This document shows positions 3,077-39,142 of a stretch of 64,000 nucleotides of DNA, piece after piece. Within the stretch, counting starts at the first letter, position 1, and every line of letters starts with the position of its first letter. The DNA is from a virus: UHGV virus genome UHGV-0277504; one strand, written 5' to 3'. Both the position numbers and the translations under genes were made by a program. Below the pieces are notes generated by a model. That model was not told where the DNA came from and did no database searches. It worked only from the letters and a program-made list of their open reading frames with translations.

Positions 3077-3874
3077 TTAAACTCTTCTATATTGATTGGA
3101 GAAGATACTTAAATCTGTATTCATAACATTATTAAACTTACTTTCTACAGCTTCTCCTAATTCTTCAGAATTATTTTGATTACCTTGTACATTCACATTA
3201 ACTCTAACATTATTGTTATTATTCACGTTACTAGACATTGAATTACTATTAGAGCTTCTTGTAGGTAAAGGTGCTGTATTGTTAAGTAAAGCACTTGTCA
3301 CAGGACTTACAGGTTCTTGTGGTGCTGAGAATCTACCACCTTTACCTCCTTTAGCTCTTCCTCCTGTAGGAGACCAACCACCGTTAGGGTTATAGTCGCT
3401 CTTCCAGTTTTTATTATTAAAGAAAGCTAATAATTGGTCGTATCCATTATGAATGTTTCCATGTCCTTTTACTTTATAGTTGTTGAAAGTACTAGGAACA
3501 TATTGTAAAAGACCTTGTGCCTCATTACCGCCACTGTTTATATCTTTAATTTGTTGTTTTATTTTAGGGTCTCCACCAGATTCTTTTTGAATAAGACTTG
3601 CTATTCCGTCTACATCTTTATCTGATATTTTAACACCCATTGCTTTGGCGGCTTTTCTAATATCATCTTTCCATTTATCAGCTGATTTTTTCTTATCTCC
3701 ACCTGCTGAATCCCCTACGTCAGAGTCATCAGAACTACCTGAATCACTTCCTCCTCCGTCTAAAGATTTAGCATCATTTATTAATTGTTCAGCTCTATCT
3801 AATAAACTTTTATAAGTTTTAAGGTTTTTAGTCTCAGAAGCATTATTTTTCTCTCTGAGTTGTTCGGTAGTCAT
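3077..3874 (-). CDS. tail-associated lytic transglycosylase (SLT-domain) protein
   Basis: 265 aa; SLT-like motif (ESGGDP...GLLQYVPSTF); N-terminal LREKN + SDSG/D-rich linker; GGKGGRFS motif shared with the upstream paralog; strong RBS before ATG at 3874. Confidence 0.7.
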   Translation of the reverse strand: MTTEQLREKNNASETKNLKTYKSLLDRAEQLINDAKSLDGGGSDSGSSDDSDVGDSAGGDKKKSADKWKDDIRKAAKAMGVKISDKDVDGIASLIQKESGGDPKIKQQIKDINSGGNEAQGLLQYVPSTFNNYKVKGHGNIHNGYDQLLAFFNNKNWKSDYNPNGGWSPTGGRAKGGKGGRFSAPQEPVSPVTSALLNNTAPLPTRSSNSNSMSSNVNNNNNVRVNVNVQGNQNNSEELGEAVESKFNNVMNTDLSIFSNQYRRV

Positions 3875-3936
3875 TTTACCTTTTTTCTTTTTATCTCCTA
3901 GTATGCCATACGTTAAAGTATATAAGTTTTTAAATA

Positions 3937-4842
3937 TTAGTATTGTAAATTTTTATTCATGTAATTAACTACTTCATTTACAATCATATCACTTGCTTTA
4001 TCTACATCATAACCTTCTGGAATAGTTAAATTTAAGTCTAAATTCTTACTTCTTGTTGTTGATTCTACTGTTTCTGTCTGTGGAGGTGAAAACCTACCAC
4101 CTTTACCACCTTTTAAGAATTTATCTGAACTACCCATTATACTAGCAATCATTGTATCCCAGTTTCCTGCTGTTGCATATTCATGTTGTCCTCCATTATG
4201 ACGCATTTTGTGTAGTGTTTTTTGTCCTCTACTATAGAAATTTTTAGCTATCCACTTAGCTCCACCAACAATACCTAAACCATAATTAAATCCGTTATTA
4301 GGATTGTTATCAAACGCACCAATTCCGTACCAGTTACCTTTTTTAGGGTCTCCTCCATGTGATAGGTTGGAAGTACCCCAAGCTGTTTCTACAGCACTAT
4401 GTGCTACTAAGTAACGAGGGTCTAATCCAGATGCTTTACCTGCTTTCATGTATATTTCTCCTAAACCACGCATTTTAGAATTTTTAGGAGCCATAGCGTC
4501 AATCCATTTATTTAACATCTTAGCATTAACGCCCTTAGCTGTTTTACCTAAATCGTGTTTAGTTATATCTGAATTAGTAAAGTTTTTACCATTTAAGTAA
4601 TCTAGTTCACCTACAGAACCGCCTTCATCATCTCCTCCAGAGTCTGATGATTCTAGGTTAGCTATTACGTTATCAAAGAATTGGCTTAATACAGGTATGT
4701 TTTTATTTTGTTCTCGTGCATTTTTCTCTCTTAAAGTTTCAAGTCTAAATCTTTCTTTTAGATTATTTCTCTTCTTACCCTTCTTCTTACCATAGGTTAA
4801 AATATATAAAACATTTATAAATTTTATCCTTTTATATAGGTC
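3937..4842 (-). CDS. muramidase (glucosaminidase-like) domain reading frame with no start codon for 108 codons; probable 3' exon of the tape measure gene
   Basis: Frame open from 4842 to 3937 (302 codons). First ATG/GTG/TTG in frame is at 4518 only. Upstream codons are protein-like (…RLETLREKNAREQ…SSDSGGDDEG…) and parallel the N-terminus of paralog 3077..3874. Glucosaminidase-type motif LVAHSAVETAWGTS. A group I intron lies immediately upstream. Confidence 0.55.
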   Translation of the reverse strand, partial: DLYKRIKFINVLYILTYGKKKGKKRNNLKERFRLETLREKNAREQNKNIPVLSQFFDNVIANLESSDSGGDDEGGSVGELDYLNGKNFTNSDITKHDLGKTAKGVNAKMLNKWIDAMAPKNSKMRGLGEIYMKAGKASGLDPRYLVAHSAVETAWGTSNLSHGGDPKKGNWYGIGAFDNNPNNGFNYGLGIVGGAKWIAKNFYSRGQKTLHKMRHNGGQHEYATAGNWDTMIASIMGSSDKFLKGGKGGRFSPPQTETVESTTRSKNLDLNLTIPEGYDVDKASDMIVNEVVNYMNKNLQY

Positions 4843-5268
4843 TTAGAAGGATAGTTATTTTTTTAAAAATATAAAGTTGGAATAAAATTTAAAAACTTAT
4901 ATATTTTAACTTTATTTAGCTATAGAACGCTACTTCTAAGCCCTAGGTCTATTCCTAGTCACTAGCTTTCACTACGTGTGTAGACTATTTGACTTCCCTA
5001 TTATTATAGGGTGGGTATTTTTCTTCCACCAATAGCTTGTGGTTTTACTCTCCCGTCAGGAGATAGTCGTTGAGGGTCTTCCTTATCTTTTGACTTAGGA
5101 CTTTCCCTGCTAAAGACCGATTACGTATACCTTAGGGTTTAACCTTAGCACATCTAACTTATTTTTTCTACTTTCGTAACTTTTCCATTTATCCTTTCGG
5201 ATTCTGTTTTAGTTAAGTTAGCTTTACGGATTCTTAGCATTTAACACCCGATACTAGCAACTTACGCT
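4790..5268 (-). ncRNA. group I intron at the 3' end of the tape measure gene (3' boundary uncertain, 4790-4830)
   Basis: Minus-strand core homologous to the other introns in the window (…GUUACGAAAGUAGAAAAAAU…UAGAUGU…CAACGACUAUCUCCUGACGGGAG…AAUAGUCUAC…). Candidate P1 is exon GCUAGU paired with intron GCUAGU (U.G at the splice site), placing the 5' splice site after …CTA GT, 5 nt before the TMP stop. Confidence 0.6.
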
Positions 5269-8200
5269 ACTAGCAAGGCAATTTGTTTGTAACAATCGTT
5301 ACCTCTAAATCCTGAAATTCCTTTTTTATTTTCTTTATCTCCCTCTTTTTCAAATTCACTTAAACCTTGATGACTTAATTGTGGTGCCATACTAATAAGT
5401 GCTGGATTTCTTTTTACTTTATCATCTGAAGGTGAACCCATTCCACCTTTTCCAGCTCCTCCTAAAAATCCTATTTTGGTAGGGTCGTTTGTTGGTATGT
5501 TTTTATTTTTACCTTTTTTGCTTCCAAATAATCCATGCCATGCTTTTCCTACAAGACCAAAGTCTTTATAAGATTTAGGTTTAGTCCATCCGATACCTAA
5601 AGATTTTTTCAATCCTTTTTTACCGACTTCTGAGCCAGCTTTATCTCCAACTATTCCTCCTATTGTACTTCCAGCAATACCACCTATAGCTGTTCCTAAT
5701 CCTGGTATTACAGAACCTATAGTAGCACCAATAGCTCCACCTGCGGTAGCTCCTGTAGCTCCACCGATGCTTCCTCCTATAGCTTCTTTGTTACCGCTCT
5801 TAAGAGAACTACCTATATCTAATGCTGATATACCTAATCCTAATAATGGAATTCCTTTTCCTAATCCTTTAAGACCTCTAGCTCCTGCTGTTATACCACT
5901 TGTTCCGCCTTTGCCTTTAGGTATTTTAGATAAAAGACCTTTTCCTTTAGAGACTATACCTTTTCCTGTTGTCTTGGCATTACTTCCTATTCCTTTCCAG
6001 TCAATTCCTCGACCTTTAGAAACAACTCCTCTACCAATGTTTTTAGCATTGTTTCCGAGTCCTTTCCAATCAATTCCTTTAATGCCTTCTCCTGCTCTAG
6101 TTGTTCCACCTTTTATTTTCTTACCTAAATCTCCTAAACCTTTTATCTGTCCGCCTCGGCTTGTATCGGTAGGTTTATATTCTCCAACTTGAATAAGTCT
6201 TTTACCAAAATCACCAACTCTTCCAAGTCTTCCACCTTTTCTACCTGTTGAACCTTTGTGGAATGTTCCACCTCCATCACCATTAGGTTTTTTAGGGGAA
6301 CCTCCACCACCTATTGGAGTTCCAGAACCATTATCTGTTCTTCCTCTACGACCTCCTGCTCTTCCATTTCTACCTTTTCCTCTACCTCTTCTTCCTAATA
6401 AAGATTCTCCGTTAGCTCTTCTACCTAACATCTCAGAACCTTTCATCATTGCTATAGATTTCATTAAAGAAACAGCAAAAGCCATGGCACTAGCTCCTGC
6501 TAAGTAGAAAGGTGCTGGAAGACTCATTAATGCTGTATTAACATTTCTTATTTTTCCAGTCATATCGTAAAGGTTTTCTGCTAATCTATCAGCTTTAGCT
6601 TTTCCTTGGTCGTCTTTACCTTCTTGTGATTCTTTATAATCTTTAGAGTTTTTATCTCTTTCTTTAGAACCTTCTTTAGATGTTTTCTTTTTATAGTCTT
6701 CTAAAGCTTTCTTAGTTAGCTTACCTTCTTCAGCCATTTTAAATAACTCATCAGACTGTTCTAAGGTAGCATCTACACCCATTTGTTTTAGGCTTTCATT
6801 AAAGGCTATCTTTTGTCCTTTTTTAGAGCTTGATACTTGAGTAGCTTGTTGATAAAGGTCTGATACATTTTCAGGGTCGGCAATACCTTTATCCATACGT
6901 TTTTGTAAATCATACCTACCTTCTAAACCTTGGTATTGTGAGCCCCAACCCATTGCATTTCTAATATAAGGGTCTTGCATACCATTTCTAATTCCATCAT
7001 TAAGGCTTGACATGAATTCTGCACCTTGTTGTCCTTGTAATCCTTTAGAACCTGAAGATGCTAACATAGATTGCATAGATGATACATTACTTAAATCATT
7101 TTTTGTCATCGTTCTTCCTTGACCGACTGACTCAGCAATTGAAGATAAAGCTTTTAATTGCTCTTCATTTCTTCCAACCATTCCTGATTCTTTTAGTCCG
7201 CCTAAGAAAGCACTTTGTATATCTTTAATATCTGCTCCAGAATCAATAGCACCAGTGTGCATTAATGTATTCATAGAGTCTCTATAAGCTTGGTCGTCTG
7301 CGATACCCATCGCTTTTCCACCTGTAGCTAGCTCTTTAACTCCACTATTTACATTGTCTTGACCTTTATATCCTACACTTCCCATGTAGTCTGAAGCAAA
7401 TTTAAGCATATCAGTACTATTATAACCTAGATGATTATCTATTGACATCTCTTCAAAATTATGTCTTACTGATTTATAATCACTTGTACCCATTTGCTGA
7501 CCTAAGGCTATTTTTTGTGGTCGGTTTGTTTCACTTAAAGACTTACCTTTCATGTACATACCGCCACCAACAGCCATGCCTGCCATTACACCGTGTGAAG
7601 CAATGGAAGGTGCACGTTCTCTAAAGATACCTTTAAACGTTCCTCTAGCTGGGTCTATTCTTCGGTCATTCATCTGTTTACTAGCTACATTATCAAAGTA
7701 GTTAGATGTAGTATCCATTTGTCGTATTAATTTTTCAATGGAATCAATCTCTTTAGCTCTAGCTTTATTGTTAGCTTCTATTTGTGCTCTTTCTTGTTGA
7801 TAGGTAGATTTATCAATTTCTTTATTTGTAAATCTCCTATTAAGATTAGACATTGATGTATCGTTTTTATCTCTATTACGTAAATCAGCTAATTGTTTTT
7901 TTAAATCAGCTGAATCTCTACGCATAAATTGAGATTTACCGATTGCTGATTTAGTTTGAGTACCAGTATCATAAGACATTCTACCTGATATTTCTGATTT
8001 ATCTAAATTACGTCTTACTCTATACTCAGAAGCTCTTATCTGTTTCATCTTTTGCTGAGCTGTCATAGCATTATTTAAAGATTCATAATAATCATCTGTA
8101 GCTTCACCTAGACGCTTCATGTCTTGTATACGTGTATTAATACCACTATCGGTACCTACAGTTTTAGAAGAAAACTCATCTAGATTTTCAGTCATAGATT

Positions 8201-8579
8201 CTAAAGTATTATTTAATTTTTCATATGATTTTTGTAAATTTGTATTAGGTGCTTTACCCATTGCTATTTGTTCTTTTTGAGCATCGGATATAGCATCTTT
8301 AAAATCATTAATTTCTTTAGTAGCTTTTCTTGTAGAATCTACTACTGTATTCATATCTTTAGAAGATATAAAAGCACTACCATCAGTTTTATCAGCAATA
8401 TCTTTAATTCTTTTAAATTGAGATGCTATAATTTTTAGTTTATCAGCCATACCGTCAATCGGTTTGTCAAGCTCCATATTTTCTATAGCATCCATATAAG
8501 CTTGTATGATTTTTAAACTACTCTCTAACTGAGAGCTATCACCTGATATATTCAATCTATAATTATCATTCATTGCCAT
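5262..8579 (-). CDS. tail tape measure protein (exon 1 if spliced)
   Basis: 1105 aa; long coiled-coil region; Gly-rich GxxGxG/KGKG repeats; position between tail chaperones and muralytic tail proteins. Confidence 0.85.
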   Translation of the reverse strand: MAMNDNYRLNISGDSSQLESSLKIIQAYMDAIENMELDKPIDGMADKLKIIASQFKRIKDIADKTDGSAFISSKDMNTVVDSTRKATKEINDFKDAISDAQKEQIAMGKAPNTNLQKSYEKLNNTLESMTENLDEFSSKTVGTDSGINTRIQDMKRLGEATDDYYESLNNAMTAQQKMKQIRASEYRVRRNLDKSEISGRMSYDTGTQTKSAIGKSQFMRRDSADLKKQLADLRNRDKNDTSMSNLNRRFTNKEIDKSTYQQERAQIEANNKARAKEIDSIEKLIRQMDTTSNYFDNVASKQMNDRRIDPARGTFKGIFRERAPSIASHGVMAGMAVGGGMYMKGKSLSETNRPQKIALGQQMGTSDYKSVRHNFEEMSIDNHLGYNSTDMLKFASDYMGSVGYKGQDNVNSGVKELATGGKAMGIADDQAYRDSMNTLMHTGAIDSGADIKDIQSAFLGGLKESGMVGRNEEQLKALSSIAESVGQGRTMTKNDLSNVSSMQSMLASSGSKGLQGQQGAEFMSSLNDGIRNGMQDPYIRNAMGWGSQYQGLEGRYDLQKRMDKGIADPENVSDLYQQATQVSSSKKGQKIAFNESLKQMGVDATLEQSDELFKMAEEGKLTKKALEDYKKKTSKEGSKERDKNSKDYKESQEGKDDQGKAKADRLAENLYDMTGKIRNVNTALMSLPAPFYLAGASAMAFAVSLMKSIAMMKGSEMLGRRANGESLLGRRGRGKGRNGRAGGRRGRTDNGSGTPIGGGGSPKKPNGDGGGTFHKGSTGRKGGRLGRVGDFGKRLIQVGEYKPTDTSRGGQIKGLGDLGKKIKGGTTRAGEGIKGIDWKGLGNNAKNIGRGVVSKGRGIDWKGIGSNAKTTGKGIVSKGKGLLSKIPKGKGGTSGITAGARGLKGLGKGIPLLGLGISALDIGSSLKSGNKEAIGGSIGGATGATAGGAIGATIGSVIPGLGTAIGGIAGSTIGGIVGDKAGSEVGKKGLKKSLGIGWTKPKSYKDFGLVGKAWHGLFGSKKGKNKNIPTNDPTKIGFLGGAGKGGMGSPSDDKVKRNPALISMAPQLSHQGLSEFEKEGDKENKKGISGFRGNDCYKQIALLVA

Positions 8580-8633: not shown

Positions 8634-9143
8634 CTACATATATAAATCATCATCGTCAAACTCATTAAGTGCGTCTTCAATACTTTGTTGTGAGTACTCT
8701 TCTTGATTATCACTAGTATTGTTAACTTGTTTGTCAAGCTCTTCAATATTCTTTTGAATTTGTGCCATTTTATTTTTATGAATTTCTCTTGCTTCCTCAT
8801 CATCTTCTTCAGCTTCTACACGTTCAGTCATCTTAATACGTTCTGATTCTGAAAGTCTGTCATAGGCTTGTTTTGCTAAGTCTTCAGCATCTAAGAAGTC
8901 TGGTACTGGCTCGAATTCTTCTTGTGATTCATCATACCATGAAGTATCATCATCTTCAACTGTACTATCGTAACCTTTATTTCGTCTTTCCATTTCTCTA
9001 TTATCTAAATTCATACTTTCAATAATAAAGTGTATTTGGTAGGCATCTAAATTTTTGAAATTAGGGTCTGTAGGCAATACTTTAAACTCTCTCATAATAG
9101 CCCACATATTCCTGGATAAAGGTCTCTTAACAAGTGCTTGCAT
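8634..9143 (-). CDS. tail assembly chaperone-like acidic protein
   Basis: 169 aa, highly acidic C-terminus; immediately upstream of TMP (canonical chaperone position). Confidence 0.45.
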   Translation of the reverse strand: MQALVKRPLSRNMWAIMREFKVLPTDPNFKNLDAYQIHFIIESMNLDNREMERRNKGYDSTVEDDDTSWYDESQEEFEPVPDFLDAEDLAKQAYDRLSESERIKMTERVEAEEDDEEAREIHKNKMAQIQKNIEELDKQVNNTSDNQEEYSQQSIEDALNEFDDDDLYM

Positions 9144-9174
9144 CCCGCCTGAATCAGAAATTTCTTTATCTCTG

Positions 9175-9585
9175 TTACCTACGAAAGGTTCCTAGGAAGT
9201 CAATCCAATCATCGTAAACTCGTACTAAAGGTATTAAGTTATATATTTTTTCTGGGTCACTTAACTCATCAGGTACTTCTACACCTACGACTTGAATTGT
9301 TGCTAACATTTGATACGCTTTATAAATCTCATCGCTTTGGTATAAATCCATACCTCCTAAGTAATTTGAACGCATAGCGTTAATTGTACCTTGCTCTAAT
9401 GCATTAGGTACTCTTAATTTAATATTGAAATCTAATTTAATTTCTTTAAAATTATAATATTTCTCAAAAACATCATTTACTCCACGAATAACTCTTGAAA
9501 CTGTATTGTCTTGTTCTTGTTCTTTCTTTCTCTTTAACTCCTGTAATTCATCAGTGTTATTATTTTGTGTATTATTTTCAGCCAT
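9175..9585 (-). CDS. tail assembly chaperone-like protein
   Basis: 136 aa; gene pair preceding TMP. Confidence 0.45.
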   Translation of the reverse strand: MAENNTQNNNTDELQELKRKKEQEQDNTVSRVIRGVNDVFEKYYNFKEIKLDFNIKLRVPNALEQGTINAMRSNYLGGMDLYQSDEIYKAYQMLATIQVVGVEVPDELSDPEKIYNLIPLVRVYDDWIDFLGTFRR

Positions 9586-11076: not shown

Positions 11077-12027
11077 TTATTTGTTTTTAAACTTTCTTTT
11101 TAAATTTTTACCTATAGAACTTACTAAATTCTTAACATCATTTAAAGTTATATTAAAATAATTGCTAATTTCATATTTATCCATATATTGATATTTTTCA
11201 ATAAAATCATCAATATCTATCTCTAGTCCATTATAAAATGTAAACACACTAGGTCTTTTTGAAACTATCCCTAATCTATTTAATTTATTAAAAATCTCTA
11301 GTACAGTATCTTTATACGTAAATATAATAAGTTGTATACCATTTTCTTTACAGTAATCTTCTTTTTTAGTATCCCATTCCTTTTGTTTTTCTTTTGTAGT
11401 GTTTCTATAGTCTCTATAATGTTGCTGTCCGTTATATTCTATACAATACTCCATTCCTTTATGTTTAATATAAAAATCCATTCTCTGATTTGAATTTTTT
11501 AAGAGGTACTCTCTTTCATATACTGTACCATTGTAATCTAGTATATCTTTAATTATCTTCTCTCCTATAGATAATTTATATCCATTATTCTTTTTATTTC
11601 TAATAGTCTTTATATAGTCTATATAGCTAATAGCGTTTAATACAGTTAATTTCTCTTCTTCTGTAGCTTCTCTAACAGTATATCCTTTTGCAGTAGTTCT
11701 TGGAAACCCATCCCTATGCCCTCTTGACACGTTTATCAATTCTGACTTACTGATACCATATAAATTTTGTATCATTTCCATAGGTAACTTTATAACTTCA
11801 TTACCTTTAGTTAATACATATACCTTTATGCGTTTATCAGTAATTGTTTTTGCTTTTTCACTAAAATCAGAATCTTCGTACCTAAACAACCATCCTTTAG
11901 TAGATTTTATTTTACCTTCTAAACACCTATTAACCGTACCCGTATTACCTACTAAATTTTGTGCTTCTTTTACACTAATGAATTCTTTACTTTCTCCTGT
12001 TTTAGTGTTTAAACCTATAATTTTCAT
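11077..12027 (-). CDS. free-standing homing-endonuclease-like protein (N-terminal DNA-binding modules + C-terminal DUF559/Vsr-like nuclease motif)
   Basis: C-terminus has the DFY..IEYNGQQH motif shared with the three other paralogs in the window. Real start is probably MKIIGLN (12027), preceded by AAAGGAGG. Sits next to intron-containing tail tube region. Confidence 0.6.
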   Translation of the reverse strand: MKIIGLNTKTGESKEFISVKEAQNLVGNTGTVNRCLEGKIKSTKGWLFRYEDSDFSEKAKTITDKRIKVYVLTKGNEVIKLPMEMIQNLYGISKSELINVSRGHRDGFPRTTAKGYTVREATEEEKLTVLNAISYIDYIKTIRNKKNNGYKLSIGEKIIKDILDYNGTVYEREYLLKNSNQRMDFYIKHKGMEYCIEYNGQQHYRDYRNTTKEKQKEWDTKKEDYCKENGIQLIIFTYKDTVLEIFNKLNRLGIVSKRPSVFTFYNGLEIDIDDFIEKYQYMDKYEISNYFNITLNDVKNLVSSIGKNLKRKFKNK

Positions 12028-12097
12028 TATATATCCTCCTTTATTTTTATCTTTAAATAAATTATACCATGTCATTAGTGTTTTGTCAAATTAAAAA

Positions 12098-12125
12098 AGA
12101 CCTGAGATAACTCAGGTCTTATAAT
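12098..12125 (-). terminator. rho-independent terminator after tail tube/intron region
   Basis: Minus strand AAGACCUGAG-UUAUC-UCAGGUCUUUUUU. Confidence 0.6.
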
Positions 12126-12127
12126 CG

Positions 12128-12833
12128 AATTAAGCTTTGTCACTTGCTGTCCTTTGTACCCTATCTCTCGATATATTTTAAAGGGAGTAGACTATACCAT
12201 AATCTTTAATGTAATTTAAAGACTCACCTATTATAGTCGTTGAAGCTTCCCACTTTGTAGGCTTGCCTGCGTATCATCTATTGCTTTAAGTACTTAGGAT
12301 TTAACCTTATACCATACTAGATATTTTTTCTGATTTCTCAACCTTCAAGCTTATCTTTTAGGATTACTTTGTAGTTATCTAGTCTTTAAGACTTTCACGC
12401 AATTTAAGGTGTTTTCTATGCTTGTCACCAAACATAGCCTCTATAAATTAAAGGTAGCTAAATTCAATTTCTTCTGTTACGATTTCGTTTGTACGCCCTT
12501 TTATACCGTTGGTTTCCCAATACTTTAACACTTTTTTATTAGTCGGAATAGACTATACCATAATCTTTAATGTAATTTAAAGACTCACCTATTATAGTCG
12601 TTGAACCTTCTTCTTATCTTTAGACTTAGAAGCTTGGATGCTGATTACCTATTACTTAGTCACTTAGTACCTTCTGTTTAAGGCTTTTATCTCAACATAT
12701 GACATCTAATCAATTTTTTCTACTTTCGTAACCTTCACATTTACCTTTTCAAGTTTTGTTGTGGTTTGATTAGCTTTAAGGTTTTCCAGCAATTTAAGGT
12801 GTTATTCGATTATCTATTACTAGATAAAAGGAG
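12128..12833 (-). ncRNA. two tandem group I intron-like elements (plus candidate micro-exon) downstream of tail tube exon 1
   Basis: Two copies (approx 12815-12490 and 12425-12130) share UUCAACGACUAUAAUAGGUGAGUCUUUAAAUUACAUUAAAGAUUAUGGUAUAGUCUA (P7-P8-P7'). Both open with an ACACCUUAAAUUGC box. Copy A has P2-like UUAUCUAGUAAUAGAUAAUCGAAUAAC and a GUUACGAAAGUAGAAAAAAUUGAUUAGAUGU core. Confidence 0.6.
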
Positions 12834-13202
12834 CTATATTTTTTCTAACTCTTCATTGTAGTTATTAGCACTACAGCCATGGTAACTGATAATCACTTGT
12901 TTAGTTAAATTATCAATAACAAGAATGTCGATAATATCTTTCTTAAGAATTTCTTCACCTAGTGAAGCATATCCTAATTTTGCAAAGTTTTCTTTTTTCA
13001 TACGTAAACGTTCTACTGTTAACGTACCTTCATATTTTAAGTAAACGTGTTCTTGTGGCATGATTGAACCAATTTCATACACACCAGTAGTTCCGTATTC
13101 ACGTCTACCACTTGCTGATTGTGCTCTTCCTACTGGTTTACCTTTAATATACAACAATACGGTATTACCAGTATGGACTGTTTGTTTAGCTTGTGATGCC
13201 AT
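12834..13202 (-). CDS. tail tube protein (probably exon 1 of an intron-interrupted gene)
   Basis: 122 aa directly after the sheath gene; ORF stop lies at the beginning of the intron-like sequence. Confidence 0.7.
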   Translation of the reverse strand: MASQAKQTVHTGNTVLLYIKGKPVGRAQSASGRREYGTTGVYEIGSIMPQEHVYLKYEGTLTVERLRMKKENFAKLGYASLGEEILKKDIIDILVIDNLTKQVIISYHGCSANNYNEELEKI

Positions 13203-37326: not shown

Positions 37327-38058
37327 ATGAAAACTAAAAAACAAGCTTTAAAATGGATTTTAAATACTATAGGTCAAGGTATAGATTGGGATAAAATGTA
37401 TGGGTTTCAATGTATGGATTTAGTTGTTGCTTATTTATATTACGTTACTGATGGGAAAATAGCAATGTGGGGAAATGCTATTGATGCTCCTAAAAATAAT
37501 TTTAAAGGTACTGCTAAAGTAATTAAAAATTACCCTGCTTTTAGACCTGAAGCAGGAGATATAGTAGTTTGGTCTTATGGTAATTTTAGTACTTACGGAC
37601 ATATTGCTGTAGTTATAGATGGAGACCCTTACGGTGACTTGCAGTATATCACAGTAGCTGAGCAAAATTGGAATGGTTTAGGACTATACAAACAAGAAGT
37701 TACTACAAAACGTATTCATAATTACGATGGTGTATCTCATTTCATAAGACCTAAGTTCAAAAAAACAGTTAAAAAAGAAGATAACACTCTTACAAAAGAA
37801 AAAAACAACAAAAAAACAAAAGGAAAAAAATTAAAAGTATCAACACAAAGAATAAACTACACTATGGATAAAAGAGGTTATAAACCTAAATTTGTTGTAA
37901 TACACAATGATGCTGGTAGTTCTTCTGCACAACAGTATGAACAAGGATTAAAAAATGCAGGATACAGTAGATATGCTCAAGGAGTAGCACATGCATACGC
38001 TTCTGATGGTTATGTGTGGGAAGCAATATCAGAAGATAGAATAGCTTGGCATACGGGT
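37327..38058 (+). CDS. endolysin exon 1 (CHAP domain + start of amidase_2 domain)
   Basis: CHAP motifs (FQCMDLV…GHIAVV); amidase start VVIHNDAG…AWHTG; exon ends at GGGU of P1. Confidence 0.8.
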
Positions 38059-38410
38059 AAATAGTTGCCCTGTTATATAGTAATGTATAATTAAAATTCT
38101 TTTAATTGACTGGGAGGCTAAGGCTATCAAGCTATGCTAATCAGCATCCAAGAATATTGTTTAAAAAAACTACTTGACAACATAATAACTTTTGGAAACA
38201 ATATTAAGGTTCAACGACTATCCTTATAGACGAGTGCCAATAAAAAATAAATCGTCAACAGGAGTAGGGCTCAAGTTAATGGAGTAGGTGAGAATCCTTT
38301 AAATCGAAATGGAGAACCCCTAAAATAATTAGGGTGAAGATATAGTCTAGACTTATAGGAAACTATGAGAAGTTCATAAGAGAACTGGTAGAGTGTTACG
38401 AACTCTATTG
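38059..38410 (+). ncRNA. group I intron in endolysin gene (352 nt, no ORF)
   Basis: P1 GGGU|AAAUAGUUGCCC; P2-like GUUAUAUAGUAAUGUAUAAUUAAAA; P7 GGUUCAACGACUAUCC; S-element GAAGAUAUAGUCUAGAC; P9 AGAGUGUUACGAACUCU; omega-G 38410. Confidence 0.8.
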
Positions 38411-39142
38411 AATATATCGGATGGAACAAATCCAGGAACAGGTAACTTTGAAGGATATGGAATTGAAGTTTGTCAATCTTTAGGAGATAGAAATACTTTC
38501 TTAAAAAATGAGCAAACTGTATTCCAATTTATTGCAGAAAAATTGCAAAAATGGAACTTACCTGCAAATAGAAATACCATCAGACTTCATAATGAATTTA
38601 TACAAACAGAATGTCCCCATGCTTCAGCATATTATCATGCAGGTATGAATACTAAAGTAGATGCTTATACAAAAGAAAGACAATTAAAAATAAAAGATTA
38701 TTTCATAAAACAAATTAGAGCATACATGAAAGGAAGTACACCTAAATCTACAGTAGTAAAATCTAGTAAAAGTAGTGGTTCTTTACCTAAGAAACAAGGT
38801 AAAAAACAAAAATTTAAATCAAATATTGGTAAAACATTCGACTTTAATGGATTAAATACCAATACTTGGGGTACTAAATGGTATTATGAAAATAATACAT
38901 TTACATGTAATGCTCGACAAGGTATCATAACAAGAGTAGGTAGTCCGTTTACAAACGCACCTCAAGCAGGTGTTTTATTCTACGGACAAACTGTAACATA
39001 TAATCAAGTAGCTGTTAATCCAAAAGAGCCATTTGTATGGATTTCATGGATTACAAATAATGGTACTGAAGTATGGATGCCTATTGAAGTCTTAGACAGT
39101 AATAATAAAATTATTGAGCAGTGGGGTACTTTTGGTTGGTAA
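38411..39142 (+). CDS. endolysin exon 2 (rest of amidase_2 + SH3b cell-wall binding domain)
   Basis: Spliced junction …AWHTG|NISDGTNPGTGNFEGYGIEVCQS restores a contiguous N-acetylmuramoyl-L-alanine amidase domain; C-terminal SH3b-like WYYENNTFTC…. Confidence 0.8.
   Translation, partial: NISDGTNPGTGNFEGYGIEVCQSLGDRNTFLKNEQTVFQFIAEKLQKWNLPANRNTIRLHNEFIQTECPHASAYYHAGMNTKVDAYTKERQLKIKDYFIKQIRAYMKGSTPKSTVVKSSKSSGSLPKKQGKKQKFKSNIGKTFDFNGLNTNTWGTKWYYENNTFTCNARQGIITRVGSPFTNAPQAGVLFYGQTVTYNQVAVNPKEPFVWISWITNNGTEVWMPIEVLDSNNKIIEQWGTFGW

What the first reader, a model, noticed from the sequence alone, without database searches (positions are those of the whole stretch)
3937..8579. Group I intron between the tape measure ORF and a 300-codon start-less muramidase-domain frame: probable spliced TMP-lysin fusion
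The frame encoding the glucosaminidase-like domain is open for 302 codons (4842→3937) but has no ATG/GTG/TTG for its first 108 codons. Those codons look coding and parallel the N-terminus of the neighbouring paralog 3077..3874 (LREKN…SDSGxDD…K-rich). Immediately upstream, starting 5 nt before the TMP stop, is a group I intron core homologous to the others, with a candidate P1 GCUAGU/GCUAGU. The TMP ORF ends …ALLVA* just inside the intron, the same exon-stop-in-intron pattern as terL and the endolysin. TMP 1103 aa + ~300 aa ≈ 1.4 kDa-scale, comparable to K-like tape measures carrying a C-terminal muralytic domain. In-frame omega-G candidates are 4829 or 4790. The alternative is that the distal frame is a separate gene with a non-canonical start and the intron sits in the extreme 3' end of the TMP gene. 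Either is unusual.
Basis: partly seen in the sequence, partly recalled or inferred. Interest (0 to 1): 0.75.

Follow-up and report, generated by a model that had tools for sequence, protein, structure and literature searches.

The report
Group I intron splitting tape-measure gene
A 479-base self-splicing-type (group I) intron interrupts the tail tape measure gene of this Staphylococcus epidermidis phage, so that splicing should join the tape measure to a cell-wall-cutting domain; the intron was already reported for this phage, but its exact borders can now be given.

Summary
The window is a Sepunavirus (S. epidermidis Twort-like myophage, 100% identical to Quidividi/BE05 here). The tape measure ORF (8579..5262, 1105 aa) is followed by 479 nt of structured non-coding RNA. 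After that comes a frame whose first 90 conserved codons have no start codon.

The insert folds as a canonical group I (IA2-like) intron. On 13 family members, 92.6% of cells pair against 75% in shuffles, 55 of 96 pairs covary, and the splice-site U·G is invariant. I place the 5' splice site after T5269 and omega-G at G4790. This gives a 1387-aa in-frame product (…QIALLV|KKKGKK…) that aligns end to end with uninterrupted tape-measure–lysin proteins of Bacillus phage Goe3 and Listeria phage A511.

It is not new. The Quidividi/Terranova/Twillingate genome paper states that introns interrupt the tape measure gene but that the borders could not be determined. The phiIBB-SEP1 RefSeq record already annotates a two-piece joined CDS over the same span.

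What this analysis adds is the exact borders, the secondary structure, and the link to an IStron-like intron family whose relatives carry TnpB. Splicing itself is inferred, not shown.

The parts
5269..8579 (-). Exon 1: tape measure protein body, codons 1-1103 plus the first two bases (GT) of codon 1104
   Evidence: ORF list and translation. Collinear with the A511, Goe3 and Twort tape measure proteins. Twillingate annotates the two upstream genes as the tape measure chaperone pair.
4790..5268 (-). Group I intron, 479 nt, without an ORF (intron position n = window 5269-n)
   Evidence: Borders from P1 covariation, the conserved 3' motif and reading frame. About 76-84% identical copies lie at the same site in Silviavirus and Alsa-type phages and in other genes.
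5253..5274 (-). P1 hairpin: exon GCUAGU plus intron AGC pairs with GUUGCUAGU. The loop is a GUAA tetraloop. The splice-site pair is U5269·G5258.
   Evidence: 8 of 9 pairs covary across 13 family members, and the U·G pair is invariant 13/13.
5262..5264 (-). TAA that ends the exon-1 frame on unspliced RNA. It lies inside the P1 GUAA tetraloop.
   Evidence: Read directly from the sequence.
5245..5249 (-). P3 5' strand (intron 20-24). Its partner is 5013..5017.
   Evidence: 5 pairs, 4 covarying, 100% of cells paired (helix 2).
5013..5017 (-). P3 3' strand (intron 252-256)
   Evidence: helix 2.
5073..5238 (-). P4-P6 domain. P4 is intron 31-36/155-160. The P5 extension has two GAAA-capped hairpins and a hairpin resembling the 11-nt tetraloop receptor (CUAAGG...CCUAAG). 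P6 is intron 161-196.
   Evidence: helices 3-12. P5a has 7 of 7 pairs covarying and P5b has 4 of 4.
5063..5068 (-). P7 5' strand GACUAU (intron 201-206), preceded by J6/7 CAAC
   Evidence: Invariant in all members (helix 13). The motif TCAACGACTAT is found 4 times in the window against 0.87 expected.
5026..5062 (-). P7.1 (intron 207-219) and P7.2 (intron 227-243) hairpins, the hallmark of subgroup IA
   Evidence: helices 14 and 16: 3 of 3 and 3 of 4 pairs covary, 100% paired.
4996..5011 (-). P8 hairpin (intron 258-273)
   Evidence: helix 17. ECP3 and PT94 lose similarity at this point (match ends at intron ~262), where I infer their ORF insertion.
4983..4988 (-). P7 3' strand AUAGUC (intron 281-286), preceded by J8/7 AAGUCAA
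   Evidence: Invariant (helix 13). It forms the pseudoknot with P3.
4919..4978 (-). P9 (GAAA loop), P9.1 and P9.2 (conserved GUAGCG loop)
   Evidence: helices 18-20. P9 is 100% paired with 4 covarying pairs.
4896..4910 (-). 5' strand of the long-range helix (GUUAAAAUAUAUAAG). Its partner is 4796..4810.
   Evidence: A 15-21 bp helix is present in all copies, with compensatory differences in Romulus.
4811..4895 (-). A/U-rich 85-nt loop enclosed by the long-range helix. Relatives carry a TnpB/transposase ORF at this position.
   Evidence: Loop is 53-110 nt in the tape-measure copies and 1470 nt with an IS605 OrfB ORF in the Romulus portal copy.
4796..4810 (-). 3' strand of the long-range helix (UUUAUAUAUUUUAAC)
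4790..4790 (-). Omega-G, the last intron base. The 3' splice site lies between 4790 and 4789.
   Evidence: The terminal motif UUUUAACYNAU(U)GG is conserved at the same site in five other phages and after TnpB in the Romulus portal intron. It is the only G at the end of that motif that restores the frame.
3937..4789 (-). Exon 2: third base of codon 1104 (GT+T = Val), then KKKGKKRNNLKERF... to the stop at 3939..3937 (283 codons)
   Evidence: the joined CDS is 4164 nt, a multiple of 3, with one terminal stop. One search gives the coding signature.
4129..4458 (-). Glucosaminidase domain (Pfam PF01832), residues 1215-1324 of the fusion
   Evidence: E 5e-9, 37.3 bits against a cutoff of 30.2.
4516..4518 (-). 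ATG used by several GenBank records to start a stand-alone 193-aa 'glucosaminidase' (residue 1195 of the fusion)

Best explanation
A 479-nt ORF-less group I intron (IA2-like, with P7.1/P7.2, an extended P9 and no P2) sits in the tape measure gene. It lies at the boundary between the tape measure body and its C-terminal lytic module.

On the pre-mRNA, the last six exon bases (GCUAGU) and the first three intron bases pair with the internal guide sequence to form P1, with U5269·G5258 at the cleavage site. An exogenous guanosine bound in P7 attacks after U5269. The long-range helix 4910..4896 / 4810..4796 then brings the 3' end to the core, omega-G (G4790) replaces the cofactor, and the exons are ligated.

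The mature mRNA encodes one 1387-aa protein (…CYKQIALLV|KKKGKKRNNLKERF…). This is the tape measure with a C-terminal glucosaminidase domain, the normal architecture in Herelleviridae. Ribosomes that translate unspliced RNA stop at the UAA in the P1 tetraloop, 4 nt into the intron.

Shown here: the RNA structure with covariation, the borders, the in-frame junction and the collinearity with uninterrupted homologues. Inferred: catalysis and the existence of the fused protein.
For: Identity of the locus. The region is 100% identical to Quidividi/BE05.

RNA structure. A hand-derived structure was tested on 13 family members taken from tape measure, portal, tail tube and exonuclease genes.
- 92.6% of cells pair, against 75.0% in 500 shuffles (0/500 reach it) and 32-45% when partners are slid by 1-3 columns.
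- 55 of 96 pairs show changes on both sides.
- P1 follows each host exon by compensatory changes, and the splice-site U·G is 13/13.
- P7 and its flanking joints are invariant, and P7.1/P7.2 covary.

3' end. The motif UUUUAACYNAUGG and the 15-21 bp helix before it are conserved, including in a Romulus portal intron that carries TnpB.

Reading frame. The junction is in frame and in the same codon phase in Sepunavirus, Alsa-type, CF5 and Silviavirus copies. The joined CDS has no internal stop.

Collinearity. The fusion aligns in one BLASTP alignment, residues 1-1381, with the uninterrupted Goe3 protein (E 7e-166), and across the junction with A511. Twort has an uninterrupted 1269-aa tape measure with a lytic C-terminus.

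Coding signal. The 90 start-less codons behave as coding sequence.

Prior reports. Tape measure introns are reported in this phage (PMC6597688), and a joined CDS is annotated in phiIBB-SEP1.

Internal control. The endolysin intron in this window splits one Amidase_2 domain and shares the same P7 motif.
Against: - Rfam's group I model gives no hit here, even at E up to 10. It also misses the endolysin, terminase and other introns reported for this phage, so this reflects the model's sensitivity and is not evidence about this locus.
- There is no P2 and only a weak P10.
- No RNA or protein data were available to me.
- Several GenBank records annotate two separate proteins.
- A product starting at M4518 would still contain the whole catalytic domain.
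- blastn found no similarity to the experimentally studied Twort orf142 introns.
Confidence: 0.88

Rival explanations
1. The insert is a group I intron relic that no longer splices. The gene is effectively split: a 1105-aa tape measure ending at LLVA*, and a separately translated lytic protein starting at M4518 or at a non-canonical codon.
For: Many records annotate two proteins. A product from M4518 keeps the complete PF01832 domain. The neighbouring paralogue 3077..3874 is a free-standing protein that begins with the same LREKN module. Silviavirus copies have an ATG in the intron's 3' part that gives a 289-aa ORF.
Against: The ribozyme core is intact, with compensatory changes maintained across genera, which implies selection on the RNA fold. 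The 90 codons upstream of M4518 are conserved as protein and have no start codon in this phage. The reading phase across the junction is preserved in every lineage. No promoter-like site above chance lies in front of exon 2 (3 found, 6.2 expected).
Confidence: 0.05
2. Both products are made. Incomplete splicing yields a short tape measure that stops in the P1 loop and a long tape-measure–lysin fusion, and their ratio is set by ribozyme efficiency.
For: The in-frame UAA lies 4 nt inside the intron, so unspliced mRNA gives a defined 1105-aa product. Twort-type introns are known to give heterogeneous products, for example exon skipping in orf142, as cited in PMC11878797.
Against: Nothing in the sequence requires it. 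An early stop codon inside the intron is common in phage group I introns and is usually explained as keeping ribosomes out of the ribozyme core (my own knowledge, not tested here).
Confidence: 0.07

Closest known systems
Group IA2 introns of phages (T4 td/nrdB/sunY, SPO1 DNA polymerase, Twort orf142 and nrdE)
   Same: It has a P1 with U·G at the splice site, the P3/P7 pseudoknot, a P4-P6 domain, P7.1 and P7.2, an extended P9 and a terminal G. It sits in an essential phage gene, and a stop codon follows the 5' splice site closely (class features as described in PMC4227781).
   Different: There is no P2 between P1 and P3. Rfam RF00028 does not detect it. blastn finds no similarity to the first 50 kb of Twort, which contains the orf142 introns. 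Self-splicing has not been tested.
IStrons (CdISt1, BcISt1, CbISt3/4 of Clostridium phage c-st): an IA2 group I intron with an IS element in its 3' part, including ORF-less derivatives
   Same: Close relatives of this intron in Silviavirus and Fi4S2 carry an IS605 OrfB/transposase ORF in the 3' loop closed by a long helix. The query matches phage c-st at 85.7% over 110 nt. ORF-less IStron copies that keep only the stem are described for BcISt1 (PMC4227781).
   Different: This copy has no ORF. Its insertion sites (after ...CTAGT...CTTAT...CATGT) and its 3' end (...ATGG) fit neither the group A nor the group B pattern given in that survey. That survey does not mention Staphylococcus (0 occurrences).
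Uninterrupted tape measure proteins with a C-terminal peptidoglycan hydrolase (Listeria A511 gp028, Bacillus Goe3 gp225, Twort ORF002, Kayvirus TmpC)
   Same: The spliced product has the same order and similar length: 1387 aa against 1242, 1274, 1269 and 1341-1376 aa. It aligns end to end (TmpC data from PMC5526547).
   Different: Here the gene is interrupted. Twort carries a different lytic module after the shared LREKN linker.
phiIBB-SEP1 gp028 (YP_009600953.1), 'tail associated lysin'
   Same: The same locus at 99.6% identity, annotated as a two-piece joined CDS running from the tape measure start to the lysin stop.
   Different: I could not read its join coordinates. Four guessed junction proteins, including mine, are absent from the protein collection, so I do not know whether its junction equals 5269|4789.

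Membership tests
Group I intron | P1 helix formed by the 5' exon end and an internal guide sequence, with a U·G wobble at the 5' splice site | tested here: met
   9-bp P1. 8 of 9 pairs covary with the different host exons, and U·G is invariant in 13/13.
Group I intron | Conserved core: P3-P8 with the P3/P7 pseudoknot, and a P4-P6 domain | tested here: met
   96 pairs, 92.6% of cells paired against 75% in shuffles (0/500). Slid controls give 32-45%.
Group I intron | Guanosine at the 3' end of the intron (omega-G) | tested here: met
   G4790 ends the family-conserved motif UUUUAACYNAUGG and restores the frame.
Group I intron | Guanosine-binding site in P7, and GTP-dependent self-splicing | not testable with these tools
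   The P7 sequence is invariant, which fits a functional site but does not show catalysis.
Group I intron | Match to the curated covariance model Rfam RF00028 | tested here: not met
   No hit at gathering score or at E up to 10. The same search misses the endolysin intron that splits an Amidase_2 domain, so the model is blind to this family. This is a detection criterion, not a defining feature.
Subgroup IA2 | P7.1 and P7.2 hairpins between P7 and P3', and an extended P9 (P9.0, P9.1, P9.2) | tested here: met
   P7.1 and P7.2 are 100% paired and covary. P9, P9.1 and P9.2 are present. The criteria are as stated in PMC4227781. The lack of P2 is atypical. Only a 2-bp P9.0 can be drawn (by eye, not tested).
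IStron | IS element (TnpA and/or TnpB ORF) embedded in the 3' part of the intron | tested here: not met
   The loop 4811..4895 is 85 nt and has no ORF. Relatives do carry such ORFs. At most this copy is an ORF-less derivative.
Tape measure protein with C-terminal lytic domain | One polypeptide with the tape measure body followed by a peptidoglycan hydrolase domain | tested here: inconclusive
   The predicted spliced CDS has this architecture (PF01832 at residues 1215-1324; collinear with Goe3 and A511). The protein itself has not been observed.

The most novel reading that the evidence does not exclude
The tape measure intron is an ORF-less member of a family of IStron-like elements (group I ribozyme plus IS605 TnpB). 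I did not find this family described as IStrons in what I read. It has spread among structural genes (tape measure, portal, tail tube) of Staphylococcus and Enterococcus Herelleviridae. Here the intron sits exactly at a module boundary where lytic domains have been exchanged. Incomplete splicing could in addition give two tape measure isoforms, with and without the lysin.
Probability: 0.2. Interest if true: 0.55.

Novelty: already known. Interest (0 to 1): 0.3.

Why it matters
Most deposited genomes of these therapeutic-candidate phages annotate the locus as two genes: a 'tail lysin' or hypothetical protein, plus a 193-aa or 289-aa 'glucosaminidase' or 'endolysin'. Annotating the join would change three things:
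- the predicted virion protein, a tape measure of about 150 kDa carrying a wall-degrading domain;
- orthologue clustering in Herelleviridae taxonomy;
- the list of stand-alone lysins that people mine from these genomes.

The exact junction (5269|4789, peptide QIALLVK) resolves what the genome announcement left open and makes the splice directly testable.

The case also shows that Rfam-based intron screens miss a whole family of phage group I introns. There are at least four copies in this 64-kb window alone.

Tried and rejected
- Rfam cmscan, at gathering threshold and at E up to 10, found nothing for this or any other intron in the window. I treated this as a sensitivity failure.
- The search for homologous proteins with a junction-spanning query returned only stand-alone 242-319-aa ORFs and no fusion.
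- I looked up four guessed phiIBB-SEP1 junction proteins by exact sequence. None is in the collection, so the record's join coordinates remain unknown.
- I expected similarity to the experimentally studied Twort orf142 introns. blastn against Twort 1-50000 found none.
- I expected 'PG-2021_27, host S. aureus Twort' to be phage Twort, but Twort itself has an uninterrupted tape measure.
- I first read the conserved GTTAAAATATATAAG as an extended -10 promoter inside the intron. It is instead one strand of a 15-21 bp long-range helix with compensatory changes, and the promoter scan shows nothing above chance.
It is in frame but lies inside the loop enclosed by that helix, and the sequence after it is RNA-conserved in copies from other genes.
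- G4778 is also in frame, but it does not lie at the conserved terminal motif.
- The plain minimum-free-energy fold of the intron does not give the group I topology. Only the comparative structure does.
- The two Landthaler & Shub papers on Twort introns are not held in the library.
Full report
**What the window is.** Bases 3800-5500 are 100% identical to Staphylococcus phages Quidividi and vB_SepM_BE05, and 99.4-99.9% identical to phiIBB-SEP1, phiIPLA-C1C, Twillingate and Terranova. These all belong to the genus Sepunavirus (Herelleviridae, Twortvirinae). The tail genes lie on the minus strand.

**The observation.**
- The ORF 8579..5262 encodes 1105 aa ending ...CYKQIALLVA*.
- The next listed ORF is 4518..3937 (193 aa), but its frame is open back to 4842, and none of those 108 upstream codons is ATG, GTG or TTG.
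- The neighbouring gene 3077..3874 shares its N-terminal 'LREKN...SDSG..DD' module and its 'KGGKGGRFSxPQ' tail with this frame (BLASTP E 5e-9). It carries an SLT domain where this frame has a Glucosaminidase domain.

**Is the start-less stretch coding?** Yes.
- tblastn matches from Silviavirus, Alsa-type Twortvirinae and Listeria A511 begin about 75-95 codons upstream of M4518.
- The 90 codons from 4788 to 4519 are open in five other phages.
- Differences are most frequent at third codon positions, for example 24/23/44 against CF5. Indels between phages are whole codons.

**What lies between the two frames.**
- Rfam finds no group I intron, or anything else credible, in the region or in the whole window.
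- Nevertheless, the 479 nt from 5268 to 4790 recur at 74-84% identity at the same place in Silviavirus, CF5 and Alsa phages. Related copies sit in other genes of Staphylococcus and Enterococcus phages: portal, tail tube and recombination exonuclease.
- Inspection of these copies gave a complete group I fold. In intron numbering, where position n equals window 5269-n:
  - P1 is the exon bases GCUAGU plus intron 1-3, paired with 8-16, and capped by GUAA.
  - P3 is 20-24/252-256.
  - P4 is 31-36/155-160.
  - A long P5 extension has two GAAA hairpins and a hairpin resembling the 11-nt tetraloop receptor.
  - P6 is 161-196.
  - P7 is 201-206/281-286.
  - P7.1, P7.2 and P8 follow the usual order.
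  - P9, P9.1 and P9.2 complete the 3' domain.
  - There is no P2.

**Test of the structure.**
- On a MAFFT alignment of 13 family members (A1), the structure pairs 92.6% of cells. This compares with 75.0 ± 0.8% in 500 column shuffles (0/500 reach it) and 32-45% when the 3' partners are slid by 1-3 columns.
- 55 of 96 pairs change on both sides.
- P1 is the most telling helix. Its exon strand differs between host genes, and the guide sequence follows it in each case (GCUAGU/GCUAGU, GCUUAU/GUAAGU, GCAUGU/GCAUGU, GCUCAU/GUGAGU, GCUUGU/GCAAGU). The U·G pair at the cleavage site is kept in all 13.
- P7 and its flanking joints never vary.
- P7.1 and P7.2 together with an extended P9 are the features that define class IA2 in the literature I could read (PMC4227781).

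**The borders.**
- The 5' splice site follows U5269. This leaves exon 1 ending ...ATT GCC TTG CTA GT.
- At the 3' end, every copy ends with UUUUAACYNAU(U)GG. This includes the Romulus portal intron, where the motif follows a 1.25-kb TnpB gene.
- The UUUUAAC part is the end of a 15-21 bp helix with GUUAAAA... just after P9.2. In the window this is 4910..4896 paired with 4810..4796. The helix shows compensatory differences in Romulus and encloses 53-110 nt in the tape-measure copies against 1470 nt in Romulus.
- Taking the last G (G4790) as omega-G, exon 2 starts at T4789. GT+T makes Val1104 and the frame runs on as KKKGKKRNNLKERF....
- The joined CDS is 4164 nt with a single terminal stop, giving 1387 aa.
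- The same codon phase and an open frame result in the BE06, Alsa, CF5 and Silviavirus copies.
I reject it.

**Does the fusion make biological sense?**
- In Listeria A511 (1242 aa) and Bacillus Goe3 (1274 aa), one uninterrupted gene encodes the tape measure plus the same lytic domain.
- The predicted fusion aligns with Goe3 in a single alignment from residue 1 to 1381 (E 7e-166), and with A511 across the junction.
- Phage Twort has an uninterrupted 1269-aa tape measure. Its C-terminal part begins with the same LREKN linker but continues with a different lytic module.
- Kayvirus TmpC proteins are 1341-1376 aa with a lysozyme-like domain near the C-terminus (PMC5526547).
- The Pfam Glucosaminidase domain falls at residues 1215-1324 of the fusion.

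**Mechanism, shown and inferred.**
- Shown: a conserved RNA with group I architecture, its borders, and an in-frame junction that restores the ancestral gene.
- Inferred from the established group I pathway: guanosine attack after U5269, docking of G4790 in P7, and exon ligation.
- On unspliced RNA the exon-1 frame stops at UAA 5264..5262, which is part of the P1 GUAA tetraloop.
- I put 0.88 on splicing producing the fusion, 0.05 on a dead intron with two separate proteins, and 0.07 on both products being made in meaningful amounts.

**What is already known.**
- The RefSeq record of phiIBB-SEP1 annotates gp028, 'tail associated lysin', as a CDS joined from two pieces over exactly this span.
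- Other records (BE05, Silviavirus, Alsa) keep two or more separate ORFs.
- The finding is therefore a rediscovery.
- I did not find the following in the papers I could read: the exact junction, the covariation-supported structure, and the placement in a mobile family whose ORF-bearing members look like IStrons.

**Limits.**
- There are no expression data.
- I could not read the join coordinates of the SEP1 record.
- I could not access the primary Twort intron papers.
- The alignment used for covariation was not fitted to the structure. However, the structure was derived by eye from some of the same sequences, which inflates the contrast with the slid controls somewhat. The double-sided changes and the exon-tracking of P1 do not depend on that.

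Noticed in passing
window 12080-12835 (- strand): Two tandem introns of the same family follow the 122-aa tail-tube ORF 12834..13202. Their P7 motifs TCAACGACTAT lie at 12594-12604 and 12233-12243. The second is followed by ORF 11077..12075, which has an I-HmuI-like NUMOD domain (PF22083). This recalls the three-intron orf142 (tail tube) of Twort. In the first copy, the U I took as the splice site pairs with A rather than G, so its 5' border is unclear.
   Followed up: partly
window 38065-38392 (+ strand): An intron splits the endolysin inside its Amidase_2 domain. Exon 1 (37327..38064) carries CHAP plus Amidase_2 profile positions 3-66. Exon 2 (38393..39142) carries Amidase_2 positions 68-130 plus SH3_5. 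It has the same J6/7-P7 motif at 38211-38221, and Rfam misses it too.
   Followed up: partly
L012 1478-3382 (Romulus portal gene); L004 9003-10783 (CIFT_MFB_MRSA12); L014 1182-2699 (Fi4S2): Close relatives of the tape measure intron (77-80% identity) carry an IS605 OrfB/'transposase' ORF in the loop closed by the long-range helix. That makes them look like IStrons residing in phage structural and replication genes. The 2014 IStron survey I read does not mention Staphylococcus, and the insertion and terminal motifs differ from its groups A and B.
   Followed up: partly
window 3077-3874 (- strand) and L018 21272-25081 (Twort ORF002): The gene after exon 2 is a modular paralogue. It has the same LREKN linker head and KGGKGGRFSxPQ tail, but an SLT domain instead of a glucosaminidase. 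In Twort the LREKN module with another lytic domain is fused directly to the tape measure, with no intron. The intron therefore sits at a boundary where lytic modules have been swapped or duplicated.
   Followed up: partly
window 5270-5282 and the equivalent 5' flanks in L012, L004, L014, L015, L016: The last 10-14 exon bases before the intron are similar in unrelated host genes. Examples are ATTGCCTTGCTAGT (tape measure), TTTGCCGTGCATGT (portal), ATGCCCTGCTTATT and ATAGCTGTGCTAGT. The Romulus portal copy and the second CIFT12 copy share about 40 nt upstream. This may reflect target-site preference or co-conversion of flanking exon sequence.
   Followed up: no
window 5131-5151 (- strand; intron 118-138): The hairpin CUAAGG-UUAAAC-CCUAAG matches the layout of the classical 11-nt GAAA-tetraloop receptor. 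The canonical UAUGG/CCUAAG form is present in the CF5 and PT94 copies. The intron also has three GAAA-capped hairpins and a GUAA-capped P1, so tetraloop-receptor docking is likely but was not assigned.
   Followed up: no
whole window: Rfam release 15 reports no group I intron anywhere in the 64 kb, at gathering score or at E up to 5. Yet at least four introns are present, and the phage's genome paper lists introns in terminase, ribonucleotide reductase, repair, endolysin and polymerase genes.
   Followed up: yes
window 8634-9585 (- strand): The two ORFs upstream of the tape measure (9175..9585 and 8634..9143) are annotated in Twillingate as the tape measure chaperone and its programmed-frameshift product. 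RefSeq calls the second one 'RNA polymerase beta subunit', which looks like a propagated misannotation. Neither has a Pfam hit.
   Followed up: no
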